From a virus (Duplodnaviria; Caudoviricetes), in the IMG/VR virus record IMGVR_UViG_3300033153_011833, positions 1-63,320 of that record: a stretch of 63,320 nt of DNA. One strand, 5' to 3'. This document shows, in pieces, positions 2,822 to 48,278 of this stretch. Below the pieces are notes generated by a model that saw only the letters and a program-made list of their open reading frames with translations, searched no databases and was not told where the DNA came from. The number at the start of each line of letters is the position of its first letter. Within the stretch, counting starts at the first letter, position 1. A program made the position numbers and the translations under genes.

Positions 2822-4869
2822 TAGAATATCCCCGTTTCTTTTCGCAATATCCCAGATAATAATTGATTACTTATATGCCCTTGTTCTATCAATGAATTTA
2901 ATTGGGTGTCAAAATTTCCCACTTCCCGTAAACCACCCCCCAATCCCATTCCTTCACCTTCTTCCATAATACTATTTATTCCAACAGGTTGAGGAATCCC
3001 TCCCTGCCAACGACCTCTCAAAGCAGTATAGTTAATAAGTTCTGTTCCTACTTGGAATAAACCAGCCTTTGTTAATCTACCAATTTCCTTTATATCCTCT
3101 ATTACTTTATCTAAATTCGATACCATATTATCGGCTGCATCAGCCCCTTCCGTAAGCATATTAACAACAGGCTCACTTGTCTCACGTGCCAAATCTTTAA
3201 TTTTTAAGGCTTTAAGAGCTCGTGCAACAACCTTTTTCATATGAGGACTGCTTTCCGATATTTCTTCTAAAGCGTCGGTATAATATCCTTTGATGTTTTC
3301 TCCCATGCCACTAAAAACGTCCTCCATAACCTTCTTTTTTTGGATATCTCTAACAATAGCCGATACCCCAGCCGTAATTTCGTCGGTCTTATAAAACCGT
3401 CTGTAAGTACCTAAAATTTCGGTTCCTGTAGATGTTTTTGATGTCCAAAAGTTTTTTCTTTGTATCCTGCCTATTGTTTTCTCATATTGTCTTTCAGCCT
3501 GGTCCCAAATATCCCTTGAAGCACCTCCCGTAATACCCAATTGAATACCCAGCCAAATGCCTTTACCTGAGCGTATGGCTACTTCAACCATACTTCTTCC
3601 AGCAGCTTCAATCAATGCAACCATGCTGTTCATTAAAGTCTTTATGCCAGATGGAAAATCTCGTTGTAATTCTTGTAAAAGTCCAAAAACAACCTCACCA
3701 ACAAATACAAGTCTATCAGCAAAATAAACAGCCCAATTTCTAATAACCTTTTCATTACTAGAAAACCATTTACCAATTTTTACAAGGCTTGGGGCTAAAC
3801 GTTCACCAATTGCTATACCAATACTCTTTATATTCCCCCAAAGAATTTTCATTTGGGACGAAAAAGATTTTAGATTTTTTTCAGCCAACTCTTTTGCGGT
3901 CCCGTTCATTTGTGATAATTTCTTTTCAAATTCTTCTACGGTATCCCCCATGCCCAACAAAGGAAAAATCGCTTGTTGGGAACGAGCTTGAAATCCTAAC
4001 ATATCTAAAGTAGCTGCCCTTGTCATCACCCCCATACCACTTAATGCCTTTGTAAGGTCTCGACCTATATCAGAAAAGGACCTCATTTTATCATTAGCAT
4101 CTACTAAAGAAATACCAAGTTTATCCCATTCATCACGATGAGATAGCATGGCTTTAACTGATAATCGAATCATTCTTGAAAACAGTTCACCCCCAACAGC
4201 ACCCTTTTTGCCTTGTTTTGCATAGGCCGCTAAAGCAGATACACCCCCTTCTATAGATATTCCATATTGTCTCATAATGGGACCAGATATTTGTAAGGCC
4301 TCTGCAAATTCTTGAGTAGTTGCATTTGCTAAGGTATTAGCCCCAACCAATATATCTGTAACCTTAGTCATATTTTTTAGATGTTCCGCTACATTAGAGG
4401 ATTCCAAACCTAAAGCACTTTGAGCGTCCGCAACCAATTCTGTGGCAGTAGCCAAATCAAAACTGCCTGCTTCTGCAAATGTATTAACAATCCTCAAAGC
4501 TTTTATAGAAGTAGCAGCATCCAAACCAGCAGAAGCCAGATAAAAATAACCTTTTGCCAAATCTGTAGCCGAAGTCGTACTTTTCCGAGACATCTCCAAA
4601 GCGGTTTCTGTCATCTGTTTTCGCATATCTTCATTCATATCAGTAAAAAGAGCCAATGATTTTGTCATGGCATCATCAAAGGAAGAATATGCCTTTACAG
4701 AGGTTGCAGCCATTGCAGTTACCGCAATAGACCCTCTCAAAGCCATTCTTTTCATATAACGAGTAATCGAACCCATTCGACGTTGAACAGCCGTCATGCC
4801 TCTCATATAATGAGCGACATCTGCTCTTAAGTGAACGATTAATGTTCCTATATCCATTTTTGCCGACAT
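2821..4869 (-). CDS. Tail tape measure protein (TP901-like core)
   Basis: IGTLIVHLRAD N-terminus, FDDAM...LAKGYFYLASAGLDA motifs, Ala-rich helical; follows the chaperone pair. Confidence 0.9.
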   Translation of the reverse strand: MSAKMDIGTLIVHLRADVAHYMRGMTAVQRRMGSITRYMKRMALRGSIAVTAMAATSVKAYSSFDDAMTKSLALFTDMNEDMRKQMTETALEMSRKSTTSATDLAKGYFYLASAGLDAATSIKALRIVNTFAEAGSFDLATATELVADAQSALGLESSNVAEHLKNMTKVTDILVGANTLANATTQEFAEALQISGPIMRQYGISIEGGVSALAAYAKQGKKGAVGGELFSRMIRLSVKAMLSHRDEWDKLGISLVDANDKMRSFSDIGRDLTKALSGMGVMTRAATLDMLGFQARSQQAIFPLLGMGDTVEEFEKKLSQMNGTAKELAEKNLKSFSSQMKILWGNIKSIGIAIGERLAPSLVKIGKWFSSNEKVIRNWAVYFADRLVFVGEVVFGLLQELQRDFPSGIKTLMNSMVALIEAAGRSMVEVAIRSGKGIWLGIQLGITGGASRDIWDQAERQYEKTIGRIQRKNFWTSKTSTGTEILGTYRRFYKTDEITAGVSAIVRDIQKKKVMEDVFSGMGENIKGYYTDALEEISESSPHMKKVVARALKALKIKDLARETSEPVVNMLTEGADAADNMVSNLDKVIEDIKEIGRLTKAGLFQVGTELINYTALRGRWQGGIPQPVGINSIMEEGEGMGLGGGLREVGNFDTQLNSLIEQGHISNQLLSGILRKETGIF

Positions 4870-23423: not shown

Positions 23424-23765
23424 ATGGAAAACTACACAAAAGAAACAATACTGAAGATGACTAAACAGGAATTACATGAGGCAAGAAGAGAATTATTAAA
23501 AGGTGAAATCAATGATAATTGCTCGAACTGCTCATACTGCTCACGCTGCTCATACTGCTCATACTGCTCATACTGTTCGGACTGCTCATACTGCTCACAC
23601 TGCTCAGATTGTTCATACTGCTCAAACTGCTCGGACTGCTTAGAATGCTCAGACTGCTCAGACTGCTCGCACTCAGTTGGGCTTAAAAAGGGGCGATATT
23701 TGATTTGCAACGTGCAGTTAACAGAAGAAGAATACCAAACTAAAATTAAAGAATTGAATTTATAA
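23424..23765 (+). CDS. Cys-x-x repeat protein, copy 1 (17 units)
   Basis: AAGGAG RBS; 9-bp tgctcNNNN repeats at 23520-23672; paralog at 47775. Confidence 0.75.
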   Translation: MENYTKETILKMTKQELHEARRELLKGEINDNCSNCSYCSRCSYCSYCSYCSDCSYCSHCSDCSYCSNCSDCLECSDCSDCSHSVGLKKGRYLICNVQLTEEEYQTKIKELNL

Positions 23766-31719: not shown

Positions 31720-33120
31720 ATGCGAATAGAGAAAAAAAACAGCAACAAAGAACGACTCATTTTAATAGGAATGATTGTTGACATAAATGTTCTTGGACGC
31801 ATCAATTCTAAATGGCATCAAAACATGTTCAAAAGCAAATGGGCTAATATTGTAGCTAAATGGTGTATCTCTTTTTATCGAAAATATGAAGAAGTGCCTA
31901 TGAATCAGATTGAAAGTTTGTTTGAATCTTGGGCTTCTGAAACTAAGGATAAGCAAATCATATTATTGGTGGAACGTTTTCTTGATTCATTATCAAAAGA
32001 ATATGAAGAGCTTCAAACAGAATCAAACAGTGATTACATTATAGATATTGCAAGTGAATACTTTAATCAAGTAAGAATAGAACGGCTTATCGAATCCCTA
32101 CAAGGAGACCTAGATAATAATGAAATAACCAAAGCCATCAATCGTACGATATCTTTCAATCAAATTGAAATGGGGGTAGGTGAAGGTATAGATGTTCTTC
32201 AAGACAAGATAGCAATAAAAGAAGCCTTAAGAAACAAAAGAAAATCCATTATAGAATTTCCAGGTGCTTTGAATAGGTTTTTGCAACACTCATTTGAACG
32301 AGATTCTTTTATAGCATTTATGGGTTCTGAAGGCCGGGGCAAGAGTTTTATTCTTCAGGAAATAGCATGGCAGGCAATGTTGCAACGAAAGAAGGTGGTT
32401 CTATTTGAGGCGGGAGATATGAGCCAAAACCAAATAATGAGGCGGTTTTTAGTGCGAGCAGCAAGGCATCCGATATTTCCTAAAACAATTGAATACCCAA
32501 AAGCCATTTTTGTAGATGGTAATGGTGAAAAAGAAATAGAGTTTGAAACAAGAAGATTCAAGGAAAAATTAGATTTTAAGATAGCTATGAAAGCTTGTGA
32601 AAGGATTATGAAAAGGAAAATCAAAAGCAAGCATTCGTATCTTAAATTATCAACCCATCCTAATTCAACCCTATCCGTAAATTCTATTCGTAGTATTTTA
32701 GAAAATTGGGAGCAGGAAAATTGGGTGCCTGATGTAATTATAATAGATTATGCCGATATTTTAGATATGTCCTACCCCGGAATGGAAGGACGTGACCGTA
32801 TAAACGAAACATGGAAGCAGTTACGAGCTTTATCACAAATTTATCATTGCCTTTTGATAACAGCCACCCAAGCCGATGCCGCCTCTTATGACTCCAATTT
32901 AATACGAAGGAAGAATTTTTCTGAAGATAAACGAAAATATGCTCATGTGACTGGTATGATAGGGATAAATCAAACGGAGGAAGAAAAAAAGCTAGGAGTT
33001 ACCAGATTAAATTGGCTCAAATTGCGAGATGGGGCATATTTTGAAACCACTTGTGTTTATTTGGTCGGTTGTTTAGACATAGCGAACCCAATGATAAAAA
33101 GTGCTTGGAAAGGGGATTGA
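31720..33120 (+). CDS. DnaB-like replicative helicase
   Basis: GSEGRGKS, IIIDYADIL, TATQ and FSEDKRK motifs. Confidence 0.88.
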   Translation: MRIEKKNSNKERLILIGMIVDINVLGRINSKWHQNMFKSKWANIVAKWCISFYRKYEEVPMNQIESLFESWASETKDKQIILLVERFLDSLSKEYEELQTESNSDYIIDIASEYFNQVRIERLIESLQGDLDNNEITKAINRTISFNQIEMGVGEGIDVLQDKIAIKEALRNKRKSIIEFPGALNRFLQHSFERDSFIAFMGSEGRGKSFILQEIAWQAMLQRKKVVLFEAGDMSQNQIMRRFLVRAARHPIFPKTIEYPKAIFVDGNGEKEIEFETRRFKEKLDFKIAMKACERIMKRKIKSKHSYLKLSTHPNSTLSVNSIRSILENWEQENWVPDVIIIDYADILDMSYPGMEGRDRINETWKQLRALSQIYHCLLITATQADAASYDSNLIRRKNFSEDKRKYAHVTGMIGINQTEEEKKLGVTRLNWLKLRDGAYFETTCVYLVGCLDIANPMIKSAWKGD

Positions 33121-33121
33121 T

Positions 33122-33286
33122 ATGGAAGATAGAACTGTACGAGCATTTGTAGAGGAATCGTTACTCAATAGGAGAACGTCCCGCCAAATCTTAATAGTGA
33201 CAAAGAATACTAGGTGGGCATCGCATATTAAGGAAGTAAAAAAGGTGCTTAAGAGTTTTTCTGGAAAAATTAAAAAAAGATTTTAG
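33122..33286 (+). CDS. Small hypothetical protein
   Basis: 54 aa directly after the helicase. Confidence 0.45.
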   Translation: MEDRTVRAFVEESLLNRRTSRQILIVTKNTRWASHIKEVKKVLKSFSGKIKKRF

Positions 33287-33316
33287 ATTTTTGATGGATA
33301 AGGCAATAATAGAATA
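33285..33316 (+). promoter_or_regulatory. Repeated phage promoter-like motif AGATTT-TTG-N10-CAATAATA
   Basis: Same spacing recurs at 34701(+), 44627(+) and ~17787(-), each just upstream of a gene start. Confidence 0.6.
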
Positions 33317-33351: not shown

Positions 33352-33804
33352 ATGAAAGATGAAATCAAAAGAGAACTTAAAAAAATTAAAAAACAACACG
33401 GTGGATTGTTAAGAGCTCGTGATGTCGTTAACTATGCAAGGGATAGTAAAACAGCTTTACACAATTGTTTTGAATGGGACGACAAAATAGCTGGTGAAGC
33501 ATATCGCATTCACCAGGCGAGAAGGATAATAAATGTACATGTCGAAATGATGCCAAATGCAACAGAGCCTATGAAAGTTTTTGTTAGCCTAAAAAAAGAC
33601 AGGTGCAAACCTGGAGGGGGTTATCGAGAGATGAAACGTATTATAAAGGTAAAGCCCTGGAGAGAGGCTTTGTTTGAACAGGCGTTAGATGAGTTAATAT
33701 CAATAAAAAAACGATACAAACAAATAAGAGAAATTGTAATTGCTGTAGAACCTGCTATCGATGCAATTATTAAAGCCAAAAAACAAGAAAGGAAAGTTGG
33801 GTAA
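33352..33804 (+). CDS. Candidate accessory protein of the Cas7-like/GGY-NN locus
   Basis: VV..AR....LH..FEWDD..A...YR..QAR.II motif; its stop codon overlaps the first GGTAAGGCAGG delimiter. Confidence 0.6.
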   Translation: MKDEIKRELKKIKKQHGGLLRARDVVNYARDSKTALHNCFEWDDKIAGEAYRIHQARRIINVHVEMMPNATEPMKVFVSLKKDRCKPGGGYREMKRIIKVKPWREALFEQALDELISIKKRYKQIREIVIAVEPAIDAIIKAKKQERKVG

Positions 33805-33919
33805 GGCAGGTGTGGTACGGTAAGGTTGGGTGGGGTCTGGTCCGGTACGGTGTGGTCAGGTAAGGCAGGTATGGTGCGGTGAGGTCGGGTCTGGTGGGGT
33901 GGGGTGGGGTAAGGCAGGT
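33800..33919 (+). ncRNA. GGY-NN pentamer array, units 1 and 2 (candidate guide RNAs)
   Basis: Strict GGT+NN periodicity, with GGTAAGGCAGGT delimiters starting at 33800, 33859 and 33908. Confidence 0.75.
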
Positions 33920-33949
33920 AAATTCTAACATTTTGGAAAGAACAGGAAA

Positions 33950-34612
33950 ATGGCAAAGACAAAAAAGAAAAAAGCAGAAAAGGTTGATGGGGTTCATCTT
34001 ACAATAGCTCCCCCAAATATGGAAACGGGACGATTTCTTATTAGGGGGACATCGCCTTTGGTTATGAATAAATTCTCACACAAAGCAAAAGTGGAGATGA
34101 TGGAAACACAAAAGGCAGGAAGCACAGCAAAAAAAGGAAAGAAAAGGGCCCCAAAAGATTTTAAGACTATGTGTGAAGCAGCAAAACATATATCTACTCA
34201 AGGATGGTGCGGTATTCCTGCTCCGGCTTTCCGCAATGCAATGGTTTCCGCTTGTAAGATTGTGGGGTTTGCTATGACCCGTGCAAAATTATCTGTGTTT
34301 ATAGAAGCAGATGGTTTTGATAAAGATGATGGCACTCCCCTTGTAAAAATCACAAAAGGCAAATCCAAACGATTGGACCTTCCTGTACGAATAGCAATGG
34401 GGTCAACCGATATTCATTCTCGTCCAATGTGGGAACCTGGTTGGGAAGCTCTTGTTCGTATAAGATATGATGCTGACCAATTCACATTGGAGGATATTTC
34501 AAATCTCCTTGTTCGTGTGGGTATGCAAACAGGAATACTTGAAGGACGTCCTGACAGCAAATCCTCTTGTGGGATGGGTTGGGGTTTGTTCGATGTTTGC
34601 GGAACCAAATAA
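33950..34612 (+). CDS. Solitary Cas7/RAMP-like protein (Vipr-like)
   Basis: IRGTSPLVM beta1, GIPAPAFRNAM helix, SRPMWEPGW and G-rich loop GMQTGILEGRP...GMGWGLFDV; no other cas genes seen. Confidence 0.75.
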   Translation: MAKTKKKKAEKVDGVHLTIAPPNMETGRFLIRGTSPLVMNKFSHKAKVEMMETQKAGSTAKKGKKRAPKDFKTMCEAAKHISTQGWCGIPAPAFRNAMVSACKIVGFAMTRAKLSVFIEADGFDKDDGTPLVKITKGKSKRLDLPVRIAMGSTDIHSRPMWEPGWEALVRIRYDADQFTLEDISNLLVRVGMQTGILEGRPDSKSSCGMGWGLFDVCGTK

Positions 34613-34615
34613 TAT

Positions 34616-34676
34616 GGCAGGTGAGATTAGGTATGGTAAGGTCGGGTAGGGTCGGGTAAGGCAAGGCAAGGCAGGT
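34616..34676 (+). ncRNA. GGY-NN pentamer array, unit 3
   Basis: GGCA GGT GA GAT TA GGT AT GGT AA GGT CG GGT AG GGT CG GGT AA GGC AA GGC AA GGC A GGT, starting just after the stop codon. Confidence 0.72.
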
Positions 34677-34776
34677 AAAGCTATTTTCAAAAAAGATTTC
34701 AGATTTTTGGTAAAAATCACAATAATAAATAGGAGAATAATCCCCACAACAAAATTTTATATGGAAAGGGCAAAAC

Positions 34777-35388
34777 ATGAAATTAACCGTTAAAAAAGAA
34801 ACTGTTATAGAACTATTTGAAACAATAGGTTTCAAAACAGTTAGAACCAAAGATGACGAATGGCTTTTGAAAAAGGCAAAAGAACTTCCTGAAATTGTCA
34901 ATGCTGCCAATGTTAAAAACCCCAAAATGAAAAGACTTTTGAAATCATTAGCAAATGCTTCCGAAATTGCTTTCAAAGACGGAAAGAAAAAGGTTTCAAA
35001 AAAAGAAGATAAAACACCGAAACCAACGAAGGCAACGAGGACAAAAAAGAAAATCAAACAAACTGAAAAAAAGACAGAACCAAAAAAGAAGAAAACCAAG
35101 CAAACTAAAAGAAAAGCTGTGAGTAAAACCAACGGAGGGAAGAAGAAAAAGACAACAAAGAAAACAAAAGCCAAGAAGACAGAATCTACTGGAAAAGATA
35201 TCTTTGGCACTCGTCTAAGTAGTAAGATGTCAAAAGTTAATAAATGCTTGAATGAAAACCCAAAAAGCATGAAAGAGCTTATGAAGCAATCTGGGATAGA
35301 AACATCTTTTTACAATCATCTTAATGGACTCGTTAAAAAAGGTCTGGTCCAAAGGGATGATAACAAAAAGTATTTTTTGAAAAAGTAA
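34777..35388 (+). CDS. Lys-rich histone H1-like protein with C-terminal winged-helix-like region
   Basis: KKTKQTKRK-type tracts; PKSMKELMKQSG...FYNHLNGLVKKGLV. Confidence 0.55.
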   Translation: MKLTVKKETVIELFETIGFKTVRTKDDEWLLKKAKELPEIVNAANVKNPKMKRLLKSLANASEIAFKDGKKKVSKKEDKTPKPTKATRTKKKIKQTEKKTEPKKKKTKQTKRKAVSKTNGGKKKKTTKKTKAKKTESTGKDIFGTRLSSKMSKVNKCLNENPKSMKELMKQSGIETSFYNHLNGLVKKGLVQRDDNKKYFLKK

Positions 35389-47774: not shown

Positions 47775-48278
47775 ATGAAAAAATACACGAAAGAAGCAAT
47801 ACTAAAGATGACTAATCGGGAATTACATAAAGTAAGAGGAATGTTATTAAAAGGTAGAGCCAATGCTGACTGCTCACACTGCTCATACTGCTCATACTGC
47901 TTGAATTGTTCACACTGTTCAGAATGCTTGGGCTGCTCGGATTGCTCAGATTGCTTGGACTGCTCGGATTGCTTGGGCTGCTCATATTGCTCAGATTGCT
48001 TGGACTGCTCGAATTGCTCAGATTGCTCACACTGCTCAGATTGTTCAAACTGCTCATACTGCTCACACTGCTCAGATTGTTCATACTGCTCATACTGCTC
48101 ACACTGCTCAGATTGTTCATACTGCTCATACTGTTCGGACTGTTTGGACTGTTTGGATTGCTCAAACTCAGTTGGGCTTAAAAAGAGGCAATATATGATT
48201 TGCAACGTGCAGTTAACAAAAGAAGAATATGAAACTAAAATTAAAGAATTGAGTTTAGAAGCGATAAACAATGAATAA
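47775..48278 (+). CDS. Cys-x-x repeat protein, copy 2 (33 units)
   Basis: 9-bp repeats at 47871-48167; N- and C-terminal caps match copy 1. Confidence 0.75.
   Translation: MKKYTKEAILKMTNRELHKVRGMLLKGRANADCSHCSYCSYCLNCSHCSECLGCSDCSDCLDCSDCLGCSYCSDCLDCSNCSDCSHCSDCSNCSYCSHCSDCSYCSYCSHCSDCSYCSYCSDCLDCLDCSNSVGLKKRQYMICNVQLTKEEYETKIKELSLEAINNE

What the first reader, a model, noticed from the sequence alone, without database searches (positions are those of the whole stretch)
33352..34676. Candidate compact RNA-guided system: lone Cas7/RAMP-like gene flanked by GGY-NN pentamer arrays (VIPR-like)
Seen: a 220-aa ORF (33950-34612) with RAMP/Cas7 hallmarks (IRGTSPLVM first strand, GIPAPAFRNAM, RP.W..W, C-terminal glycine loop G..GILEGRP...GMGWGLF) and no other cas genes. 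Non-coding DNA on both sides follows a strict grammar: a fixed GGT/GGC triplet, then a variable dinucleotide, with a one-base-short GGC-A-GGT step delimiting units. A 150-aa gene whose stop overlaps the first delimiter and a promoter-like motif sit upstream, so the locus looks like one operon. Known: Cas7-family proteins polymerise on guide RNA with fixed periodicity. Recalled and unverified: recently reported phage VIPR systems have this layout, with NN pairs reading dsDNA non-contiguously. Inference: the three units are guides, each GGY anchors one protomer, and the system silences genes of competing phages or the host without a nuclease.
Basis: partly seen in the sequence, partly recalled or inferred. 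Interest (0 to 1): 0.96.

Follow-up and report, generated by a model that had tools for sequence, protein, structure and literature searches.

The report
Phage VIPR locus with staggered guides
This phage carries a small CRISPR-like system of a kind first described in 2026 (VIPR): a Cas7-like protein, a partner protein and three short guide RNAs built from five-letter repeats. It is a real new example of a known kind, and its target is still unknown.

Summary
In a complete 63,320-bp phage genome, the only YNNGG pentamer arrays (11, 9 and 9-10 units) flank a 220-aa gene on its own strand. Shuffles give about 0.02 such arrays. Each array is bounded by GGCAGG, a one-base-short step.

The protein folds as a RAMP/Cas7 (pLDDT 87). 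48 of the 50 best structural matches are CRISPR RAMPs, top Z 11.3. It is homologous to the experimentally studied Vipr of phage SUSP1 (hhalign 97.3%, E 2e-11).

In 80 viral relatives, 291 arrays lie on the gene's strand and 2 on the other, with the same CAGG step. The 150-aa neighbour is conserved in 76 of 80 loci and is winged-helix-like. I read it as the accessory gene (vap).

VIPR was published in 2026 preprints, which also mention tail-less 'staggered' arrays. This scan has already noted VIPR on other DNA: 538 notes in at least 406 genomes.

No target was found. Exact one-base-skip searches gave nothing above chance. No RNA data exist. Relatives with GAC-NN repeats have changed exactly the two residues R158 and W211.

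The parts
33278..33310 (+). Promoter-like site upstream of the locus. It holds an 18-nt motif AGATTTYAGATTTTTGRT, with TTTAGA, a 17-nt spacer and AATAAT.
   Evidence: A second exact copy of the motif lies just after the locus. The consensus scan is at chance level overall, so this is an inference.
33352..33804 (+). vap-like accessory gene, 150 aa. It has an N-terminal winged-helix-like domain (residues 1-100) and a long C-terminal helix (101-149).
   Evidence: phrog_15946, E 6.8e-19. A homologue is found in 76 of 80 related loci, always on the vipr strand. AF2 pLDDT 95.8. The best VIA Z is 6.5 and most rows are winged-helix domains. No detectable homology to SUSP1 vap1.
33805..33810 (+). GGCAGG boundary (4-nt CAGG step) before guide 1. 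It overlaps the end of vap.
   Evidence: GGCAGG precedes 136 of 291 arrays in relatives.
33811..33865 (+). vrRNA guide unit 1: 11 YNNGG units.
33866..33869 (+). CAGG step between guides 1 and 2. The pentamer register shifts by one base.
   Evidence: CAGG is the spacer in 76 of 146 neighbouring array pairs in relatives and in 66 of 126 in the metagenome set.
33870..33914 (+). vrRNA guide unit 2: 9 YNNGG units.
33915..33918 (+). CAGG step closing guide 2. TAAA and the vipr ribosome-binding region follow it.
33950..34612 (+). vipr: 220-aa RAMP/Cas7-fold protein with a thumb hairpin (about residues 139-161, R158) and a G-loop (about residues 195-212, E198-G199-R200, W211).
34616..34621 (+). GGCAGG boundary before guide 3, starting 4 nt after the vipr stop codon.
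34622..34671 (+). vrRNA guide unit 3: one degenerate unit (TGAGA) plus 9 YNNGG units. The last two units have Y = C.
34672..34675 (+). CAGG step closing guide 3.
34694..34726 (+). Second copy of the promoter-like motif. It marks the start of the next transcription unit (the gene at 34777) and so the 3' limit of the locus.
   Evidence: The downstream 203-aa gene is not conserved beside vipr: 0 of 80 loci.

Best explanation
This is a VIPR (Viral Interference Programmable Repeat) locus of a tailed phage. The order is promoter, vap-like gene, two vrRNA guides, vipr, then a third guide.

Shown here:
- The protein is a RAMP-fold homologue of the characterised SUSP1 Vipr.
- The arrays follow the published GGY/NN grammar on the gene's strand.
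- The gene, the arrays and the 150-aa partner travel together across hundreds of viral loci.

Inferred from the published SUSP1 work:
- The region is transcribed as one RNA.
- Vipr protomers polymerise one per pentamer, holding each GGY and presenting the NN pairs.
- The filament binds double-stranded DNA whose sequence reads NN-x-NN-x (one skipped base per unit, usually the codon wobble base).
- Binding blocks transcription of a gene of a competing phage, satellite or other mobile element.
- The winged-helix-like partner assists on DNA.

The array is of the tail-less 'staggered' kind. A one-base-short unit, GG-CA-GG, ends one guide and starts the next. I infer that this register break punctuates separate filaments and defines the guide ends without a ribozyme or a structured tail.
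For: Fold: AF2 pLDDT 87, pTM 0.81. Foldseek against the PDB gives 51 matches at E <= 0.001, and all 35 printed rows are CRISPR RAMP subunits. In VIA-align, 48 of the 50 rows are CRISPR RAMPs. The top matches are Cmr4/Csm3 at Z 11.3 and 11.1, with 152 and 148 residues aligned.

Homology: profile-profile hhalign of A1 against 10 SUSP1-clade Viprs gives probability 97.3%, E 2e-11 over 155 columns. Invariant R158 falls on SUSP1 R138, and E198-G199-R200 fall on D177-W178-R179. The cryo-EM paper names those SUSP1 residues as GGY contacts.

Arrays: there are 3 in the window against 0.02 expected.

Co-occurrence: 291 arrays on the vipr strand in 64 of 80 IMG/VR loci, against 2 on the other strand. In metagenome loci, 243 arrays in 60 of 80, against 0.

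The same CAGG step appears in 76 of 146 and 66 of 126 neighbouring pairs. Bounded guides mostly have 8-12 units: 89 of 132.

Partner gene: present in 76 of 80 loci on the same strand. It is also in Cyanophage Cy-LDV1 and Mycobacterium phage Donkeykong, with arrays alongside.

Protein/repeat covariation: the loci with GAC-NN repeats (L061 = L062, and L068) are the only ones with both R158 and W211 replaced. These are the only 2 alignment columns that meet the test.

Context: a complete phage genome with terminase, portal and tape-measure genes, and no cas genes.
Against: No target was found.
- Exact one-base-skip patterns of guide 1 (11 and 10 units) and guide 3 gave 0 hits in IMG/VR.
- Guide 1 gave 0 hits in the genome and metagenome collections.
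- Guide 2 gave 3 hits, in unrelated 61-69% GC contigs. That is about what chance allows for 18 specified bases.

Nothing here shows that the arrays are transcribed or bound. No RNA run holds the locus.

Identity to SUSP1 Vipr is only about 18%.
- SUSP1 H17 has no aligned partner.
- SUSP1 W178 aligns with G199.
- The equivalence of W211 and W178 is therefore my inference.

There is no structured 3' tail; the fold z-scores are -0.28 and -1.85. According to the paper's text, staggered arrays have not been confirmed by RNA sequencing.

Guide 3 starts with a degenerate unit and ends in low-complexity AA units.

The one-base-skip rule gave no excess over the other skip lengths or over shuffled guides on the sequences I hold.
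Confidence: 0.85

Rival explanations
1. It is a VIPR-like RNP that recognises RNA, or uses a different pairing rule, rather than binding dsDNA by the one-base-skip code. This clade is distant from SUSP1, and its closest solved folds are RNA-targeting type III Cas7 proteins.
For: The top structural matches are Cmr4, Csm3 and Cas7-11. Identity to SUSP1 Vipr is only about 18% and the G-loop differs. The one-base-skip rule showed no excess of matches over skips of 0, 2 or 3 or over shuffled guides, on the window or on 80 loci. No exact natural target was found.
Against: The paper states that all seven VIPR types use the same GGY/NN architecture, and it found targets for types III and V with the one-base-skip rule. 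My searches were exact-match only, or covered under 1 Mb of sequence, so they have little power. The thumb arginine and the G-loop E/D-x-R are conserved.
Confidence: 0.07
2. The locus is a decaying or idle copy. The protein is intact, but the three short guides no longer match anything and the system has no current function in this phage.
For: No target was found in any collection. Guide 3 has a degenerate first unit and repetitive AA units. There are only three guides, whereas some relatives have up to about 19 arrays in one locus.
Against: The window protein keeps all 39 invariant residues of the 40-sequence alignment, of which it is itself a member. 29 of the 30 units keep a perfect GG and a pyrimidine, in a 36.5% GC genome. 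All five GGCAGG boundaries are intact. The partner gene keeps its family's invariant residues.
Confidence: 0.05
3. The G-rich pentamer tracts act as DNA, for example as binding sites for the winged-helix partner or as G-quadruplex or replication signals. The RAMP-like protein would then be unrelated to them.
For: The arrays are G-rich and lie in the replication-gene region, between the DnaB-like helicase and the clamp and polymerase genes. The partner looks like a DNA-binding winged helix.
Against: The strand bias is 291 to 2 and 243 to 0 relative to vipr. That fits an RNA made with the gene, not a symmetric DNA site. Repeat position G2 covaries with two residues of the RAMP protein, not of the partner. 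The published SUSP1 vrRNAs co-purify with Vipr.
Confidence: 0.03

Closest known systems
VIPR type II system of Escherichia phage SUSP1 (Vipr + vap1 + vrRNAs). Sources: bioRxiv 10.64898/2026.04.26.720920, .720927 and 10.64898/2026.10.15.759431.
   Same: Phage-borne. A single small RAMP protein that is homologous (hhalign 97.3%). A partner gene of about 150 aa. YNNGG arrays on the gene's strand on both sides of vipr. No cas genes. The thumb arginine is conserved.
   Different: About 18% identity. There is no ~40-nt conserved 3' tail or pseudoknot. Guides follow one another directly, separated only by CAGG. The partner is not detectably homologous to vap1, and here it lies upstream of vipr. The G-loop reads EGRPD...CGMGWG instead of GDWRPR. 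The target is unknown.
VIPR 'staggered vrRNA arrays', from the legend of fig. S18 in 10.64898/2026.04.26.720920 as printed in the main text. The figure and data files were not seen.
   Same: The legend says that neighbouring vrRNAs derive from positions overlapping by 1 nt, and that the end of one marks the start of the next. That is what GGCA[G]GYNN gives here and in relatives.
   Different: The paper's text says only the ribozyme arrays and the single-vrRNA systems were confirmed by sRNA-seq. I could not see which VIPR type carries staggered arrays, so the type of this locus is not assigned.
CRISPR-Cas class 1 backbone subunits (Cas7 family: Csm3, Cmr4, Cas7-11 domains).
   Same: RRM/RAMP core, thumb hairpin and glycine-rich loop. 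Z 9-11 over 135-157 residues.
   Different: No sequence-level membership: Pfam RAMPs PF03787 is not matched. There is no CRISPR array, Cas1, Cas6 or large subunit. The period is 5 nt, not 6 nt. The guide is built from repeats rather than from a spacer.
Non-canonical VIPR arrays (for example GAC/NN), reported in bioRxiv 10.64898/2026.10.21.760802. Only passages were read.
   Same: Relatives of this protein (L061/L062, L068) carry GAC-NN arrays beside a Vipr-like gene.
   Different: The window itself is canonical (GGY). The link to substitutions at R158 and W211 was not in the passages or sections I read.

Membership tests
VIPR system | Protein with a RAMP fold (RRM core, thumb, glycine-rich loop). 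| tested here: met
   AF2 pLDDT 87. Foldseek gives 51 matches at E <= 0.001, and all printed rows are CRISPR RAMPs. In VIA, 48 of 50 rows are CRISPR RAMPs, top Z 11.3.
VIPR system | Homology to a Vipr protein that has been characterised experimentally. | tested here: met
   hhalign of A1 against the SUSP1-clade profile: 97.3%, E 2e-11, 155 columns. Against the single SUSP1 sequence: 54%, E 1.3e-4. tblastn alone did not reach SUSP1.
VIPR system | Tandem YNNGG (GGY/NN) units, at least 4, next to vipr and on its strand. | tested here: met
   Arrays of 11, 9 and 9(+1) units, all on the + strand, with none elsewhere in 63 kb. Shuffles give 0.02.
VIPR system | GGY conserved while NN is hypervariable across related systems. 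| tested here: met
   NN entropy is 3.83 of 4 bits over 2,071 units in 80 loci. GG and Y were fixed by the search pattern, so their constancy is by construction. No guide is shared with the window. No near-identical locus was available for a position-by-position comparison.
VIPR system | Minimal locus without a CRISPR array or other cas genes. | tested here: met
   PF03787 and PF01867 are absent from the whole genome. No PADLOC or NCBIfam hit for either protein. No CRISPR-like repeat.
VIPR system | Accessory gene (vap) with a predicted DNA-interacting fold. | tested here: met
   The 150-aa gene is conserved in 76 of 80 loci on the same strand. It has a winged-helix-like N-terminal domain, but Z is only 5-6.5, so this is suggestive. 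Homology to vap1 was not detected. Which of vap1-6 it is cannot be told without the supplements.
VIPR system | Viral or proviral genome. | tested here: met
   A complete virus record with direct terminal repeats. Terminase, portal and tape-measure genes are present.
VIPR system | vrRNAs are expressed and co-purify with Vipr. | not testable with these tools
   No RNA run is listed for the locus. This needs sRNA-seq and a pull-down.
VIPR system | Guides match natural dsDNA targets by the one-base-skip rule. | tested here: inconclusive
   Exact scans gave 0 hits for guides 1 and 3, and 3 chance-level hits for guide 2. No self-match in the window stood above the other skip rules. Mismatch-tolerant scans of large collections were not possible.
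VIPR type II (SUSP1-like architecture) | Each vrRNA ends in a conserved structured 3' tail (a pseudoknot in the SUSP1 clade). | tested here: not met
   Guides abut with only CAGG between them. The array regions fold no better than shuffles, z -0.28 and -1.85. No Rfam family, hammerhead included, matches at E <= 1 apart from one chance-level viral hairpin.
CRISPR-Cas (Cas7/RAMP Pfam family) | Sequence match to RAMP models, together with a CRISPR array and cas partners. | tested here: not met
   No Pfam hit for the protein at E <= 0.1. PF03787 is not found in the genome, while 5 of 14 control genomes ring. No Cas1. No CRISPR array.

The most novel reading that the evidence does not exclude
In this large Vipr clade, multi-guide arrays need neither a tail, nor a ribozyme, nor a Cas6-like nuclease. 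The one-base-short unit GG-CA-GG is itself read by Vipr. In GAC-NN relatives it changes with the repeats, to GA-CA-GA. By breaking the 5-nt register it ends one filament and starts the next, so the protein punctuates its own guides.

The pocket for the second G is formed by R158 (thumb) and W211 (G-loop). Two substitutions (R to Q or L, W to F or L) re-specify the scaffold from GGY to GAY in nature. That would give mutually orthogonal VIPR systems, which rival phages could not hijack with solo guides.
Probability: 0.35. Interest if true: 0.5.

Novelty: new member of a known kind. Interest (0 to 1): 0.3.

Why it matters
It adds a complete, AT-rich phage genome to the VIPR family. The locus is compact and cleanly delimited, about 1.4 kb with three guides, a size that can be synthesised and tested.

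It belongs to the 'staggered' array architecture. According to the text I read, that architecture has not yet been confirmed by RNA sequencing.

The comparative data gathered here give three things:
- A conserved punctuation signal (GGCAGG).
- A typical guide length of 8-12 units.
- Two candidate residues for reading the second G.

All three are directly testable. They bear on how such arrays are processed and on whether orthogonal VIPR scaffolds can be made.

The finding itself is not a new kind of system. The class, its code and its structures are in print, and this scan has met it hundreds of times.

Tried and rejected
Target searches
- One-base-skip patterns of guide 1, at 11 units and 10 units, and of guide 3, gave 0 exact matches in IMG/VR.
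- Guide 1 (10 units) gave 0 matches in genome contigs and in metagenome contigs.
- Guide 2 gave 3 matches. They lie in unrelated contigs of 61-69% GC with no DNA similarity to each other. The shared peptide IAERLGGGN follows from the pattern itself. I treat them as chance.
- Two guides of Mycobacterium phage Donkeykong gave 0 matches.
- On the window itself, the best one-base-skip matches (16 of 22, 12 of 18, 16 of 20) were no better than those for skips of 0, 2 or 3.
- I ran 106 unique guides of at least 8 units against 80 loci plus the window. With the one-base skip, 9 reached at least 85% identity. Shuffled guides also gave 9, and the 3-base skip gave 8. So there is no sign of anti-VIPR targeting in the sequences I hold.

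Sequence-only links
- Neither phmmer nor a profile search against the PDB found a RAMP.
- Neither Pfam, NCBIfam nor PADLOC matched either protein.

Partner gene
- Neither BLASTP nor hhalign found homology to SUSP1 vap1.
- The PDB profile search found nothing.

Expression
- No RNA holder is listed. The single DNA run listed holds a small share of the words, and I did not lay reads on it.

Closer relatives
- The metagenome scan found none above 63% identity (one partial protein reaches 71%). A unit-by-unit comparison of orthologous arrays was therefore not possible.

Rejected idea
- I rejected the downstream 203-aa lysine-rich winged-helix gene (34777-35388) as the accessory gene. It is found in 0 of 80 related loci.

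VIPR type
- The type (I-VII) could not be assigned.
Full report
WHAT IS THERE

The window is a complete virus record of 63,320 bp with direct terminal repeats. Its GC content is 36.5%. It has a large terminase, a portal, a capsid-region protein and a tape-measure protein on the minus strand, and replication genes on the plus strand.

The locus lies between a DnaB-like helicase gene (31720-33120) and DNA-methylase, clamp and polymerase genes. It reads as follows:
- a promoter-like site (33282-33310);
- a 150-aa gene (33352-33804);
- GGCAGG (33805-33810);
- 11 YNNGG units (33811-33865);
- CAGG;
- 9 units (33870-33914);
- CAGG;
- a 220-aa gene (33950-34612);
- GGCAGG (34616-34621);
- one degenerate unit plus 9 good units (34622-34671);
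- CAGG.

A regex scan of both strands of the whole genome finds only these three arrays. Fifty shuffles give 0.02 arrays of at least 4 units. The period of five excludes coding, and the only ORFs across the arrays are spurious minus-strand frames.

THE PROTEIN

The 220-aa protein has no Pfam, NCBIfam or PADLOC match. It matches a PHROG family of unknown function (phrog_4652, E 1.7e-11). It belongs to a very large family:
- 1,609 of 1,848 candidates at E <= 0.001 in the word-indexed search;
- 3,099 cluster representatives at E <= 0.001 in the full HMM search, of which 1,874 reach 1e-10.

AlphaFold2 with a 40-sequence alignment gives pLDDT 87 and pTM 0.81. Foldseek against the PDB gives 51 matches at E <= 0.001, and all 35 printed rows are CRISPR RAMP subunits. 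A Foldseek-independent search of 48,161 chains gives 27 chains at Z >= 8. The top matches are Cmr4 (Z 11.3, 152 residues, rmsd 3.7) and Csm3 (Z 11.1). 48 of the 50 printed rows are CRISPR RAMPs. The other two are an RNase P Pop5-like subunit and one unrelated receptor. The RAMP fold is thus well supported, while sequence-level membership in the Pfam RAMP family is not.

COMPARISON WITH PRINT

A full-text search found three bioRxiv preprints of 2026 on VIPR systems, and later a fourth that mentions them.

- Discovery paper (10.64898/2026.04.26.720920). I read the outline, the Results, Methods sections 18, 20, 26 and 27, and passages including the supplementary figure legends printed in the main text.
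- Structure paper (.720927). I read the outline, sections 5 and 6, and passages.
- Competition paper (10.64898/2026.10.15.759431). I read the outline with abstract, section 17, and one term search.
- Language-model paper (10.64898/2026.10.21.760802). I read passages only.
- No supplementary tables or data files were seen.

These papers define VIPR as a lone RAMP homologue (Vipr), usually with one accessory gene (vap), flanked by vrRNAs of 9-16 YNNGG units. They state that the NN pairs read dsDNA with one skipped base per unit. They describe seven types. They also describe array variants, including 'staggered arrays' in which neighbouring vrRNAs overlap by 1 nt.

LINK TO A CHARACTERISED Vipr

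I fetched the SUSP1 genome by an accession recalled from memory, and the record's title confirmed it. I located its VIPR locus by its arrays.

- tblastn with the window protein does not reach SUSP1.
- hhalign of my alignment against the single SUSP1 Vipr gives 54% probability, E 1.3e-4 over 56 columns.
- Against a small profile of 10 SUSP1-clade Viprs taken from IMG/VR, it gives 97.3%, E 2e-11 over 155 columns. That covers residues 25-202 of the window protein.

The alignment puts invariant R158 on SUSP1 R138, and E198-G199-R200 on D177-W178-R179. The structure paper says these SUSP1 residues contact the GGY motif. SUSP1 H17 has no aligned partner.

COMPARATIVE EVIDENCE

Of 384 pattern-matched IMG/VR stretches, 329 encode a relative, and the best 80 were kept.

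In those 80 loci:
- 291 arrays of at least 4 units lie on the vipr strand, in 64 loci;
- 2 arrays lie on the other strand, in 2 loci.

Of the 16 loci without strict arrays, several carry variant or degenerate pentamer arrays.

In 80 metagenome loci the counts are 243 arrays in 60 loci against 0. At least two contigs occur in both sets, so the two sets are not fully independent.

The 4-nt step CAGG is the spacer in 76 of 146 and in 66 of 126 neighbouring array pairs. GGCAGG precedes 136 of 291 arrays. Guides bounded by GGCAGG...CAGG mostly have 8-12 units: 89 of 132 unique guides.

NN is close to maximally diverse, at 3.83 of 4 bits over 2,071 units. GG and Y were fixed by the search pattern, so their constancy in this count is by construction.

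In most relatives Y is C (92%). In the window Y is T in 27 of 29 units, but all five boundaries keep GGCAGG. The share of T falls with GC content (r = -0.49 over 106 loci). The closest AT-rich relative, L155, has the same layout, with GGTTTGGCAGG boundaries.

THE PARTNER GENE

The 150-aa protein (phrog_15946) has a homologue in 76 of 80 loci, always on the vipr strand. It lies downstream of vipr in 72 of them and upstream in 4, as it does in the window.

Its model (pLDDT 95.8) has an N-terminal domain of about 100 residues. The best matches for that domain are winged-helix nucleic-acid-binding domains at Z 5-6.5, which is suggestive only. A 50-residue helix follows it. BFVD gives three uncharacterised phage proteins. 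Homology to SUSP1 vap1 is not detectable.

The same gene pair, with arrays and CAGG steps, is present in two named phages. In Cyanophage Cy-LDV1 the Vipr homologue is 56.7% identical to the window's. In Mycobacterium phage Donkeykong it is 32% identical.

COVARIATION

Three loci representing two lineages (L061 = L062, and L068) carry arrays of YNNGA units. In L068 the boundary is GACAGA...CAGA.

I looked for alignment columns that are at least 90% conserved in the other 78 sequences and changed in all three of these loci. Exactly two columns meet that test: R158 (to Q, Q, L) and W211 (to F, F, L).

Over the 161 loci that cover both positions:
- the 153 R/W loci have G at unit position 5 in 84% of 3,700 loosely called units, and A in 4%;
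- the Q/F and L/L loci have A in 86% and 100%.

L033 (R158S) has only degenerate arrays.

This links the protein to the repeats independently of the literature. It points to R158, and by inference W211, as the pocket for the second G.

GAC/NN arrays as such are already in print. The engineered change GGY>GAY is listed among the SUSP1 constructs tested, and the main text says that perturbing the GGY motifs abolished silencing.

WHAT REMAINS OPEN

No target was found (see Tried and rejected). Only exact matches could be sought in the big collections, so this says little. There are no expression data. The arrays show no structured tail and no Rfam family.

Two exact copies of an 18-nt promoter-like motif bracket the locus, at 33278-33295 and 34694-34711. 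No terminator-like site lies between them on the plus strand. This fits a single transcription unit, but the motif pattern was derived from these two copies, and the general promoter scan is at chance.

VERDICT

This is a genuine VIPR locus of the tail-less, staggered-array kind, in a complete phage genome of unknown host. It is a new member of a known kind. This scan has already recorded VIPR loci on other DNA many times: 538 notes in at least 406 genomes. Look-alikes of this protein were found in 26 windows of 22 genomes.

Noticed in passing
L061 1379-1556 (= L062 2300-2477); L068 3656-3749: These relatives carry GAC-NN (YNNGA) arrays. In L068 the boundary step is CAGA instead of CAGG. Their Vipr proteins have R158 changed to Q or L and W211 changed to F or L. 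These are the only two otherwise-conserved columns that differ.
   Followed up: yes
L033 4060-4500: This relative has R158 changed to S. It has only degenerate pentamer tracts in which the second G is often T or A. The GGCAGG steps are still visible.
   Followed up: partly
L111 1938-2324 (Mycobacterium phage Donkeykong gp48): The annotated 'hypothetical protein' CDS gp48 (1938-2324 in L111) covers the arrays at 1959-2299, which include four of 10-11 YNNGG units, directly upstream of the Vipr homologue gp49. It is probably not a protein gene. gp50 is the vap homologue.
   Followed up: partly
L110 3128-3274 and 3935-4062 (Cyanophage Cy-LDV1): A named cyanophage has the same system. The Vipr homologue is g34 (56.7% identity) and the vap homologue is g33. 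GGCAGG-delimited arrays lie after both genes. The locus sits between a cI-like repressor gene and an excisionase gene.
   Followed up: partly
window 33278-33295 and 34694-34711: Two exact copies of an 18-nt promoter-like motif bracket the VIPR locus. Copies with 3 mismatches lie at 3865, 21091 and 43847.
   Followed up: partly
window 34777-35388: A 203-aa lysine-rich protein with a C-terminal TrmB-like winged helix (Pfam E 1.9e-6) lies directly after the locus. It is not conserved beside vipr in any of 80 relatives.
   Followed up: partly
window 23520-23668 and 47868-48151: Two long 9-bp tandem repeat tracts (about 16 and 31 copies, unit GACTGCTCA or its rotation) lie about 24 kb apart.
   Followed up: no
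L083 3986-4011, L084 7185-7210, L085 3888-3913: Guide 2's one-base-skip pattern matches exactly in three unrelated high-GC viral contigs. In L083 it falls in frame in a small ORF that looks (my reading) like a ribbon-helix-helix protein. I judge all three to be chance.
   Followed up: partly
44 loci with GGCAGG...CAGG-bounded guides: The last unit before CAGG is more constant within a locus than other units: the mean share of the commonest NN is 0.51, against 0.34-0.40. It starts with A in 81 of 132 guides. This hints at an extended boundary signal, Y-A-N-GG-CAGG. In the window it is always TAAGG or CAAGG.
   Followed up: partly
L048 3816-5216 (189-kb viral contig): This relative keeps R158 and W211, but its long pentamer tracts are degenerate at unit position 5 (G in 14, T in 24 and A in 17 of 59 units). 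It may be a different register or a decayed array.
   Followed up: no
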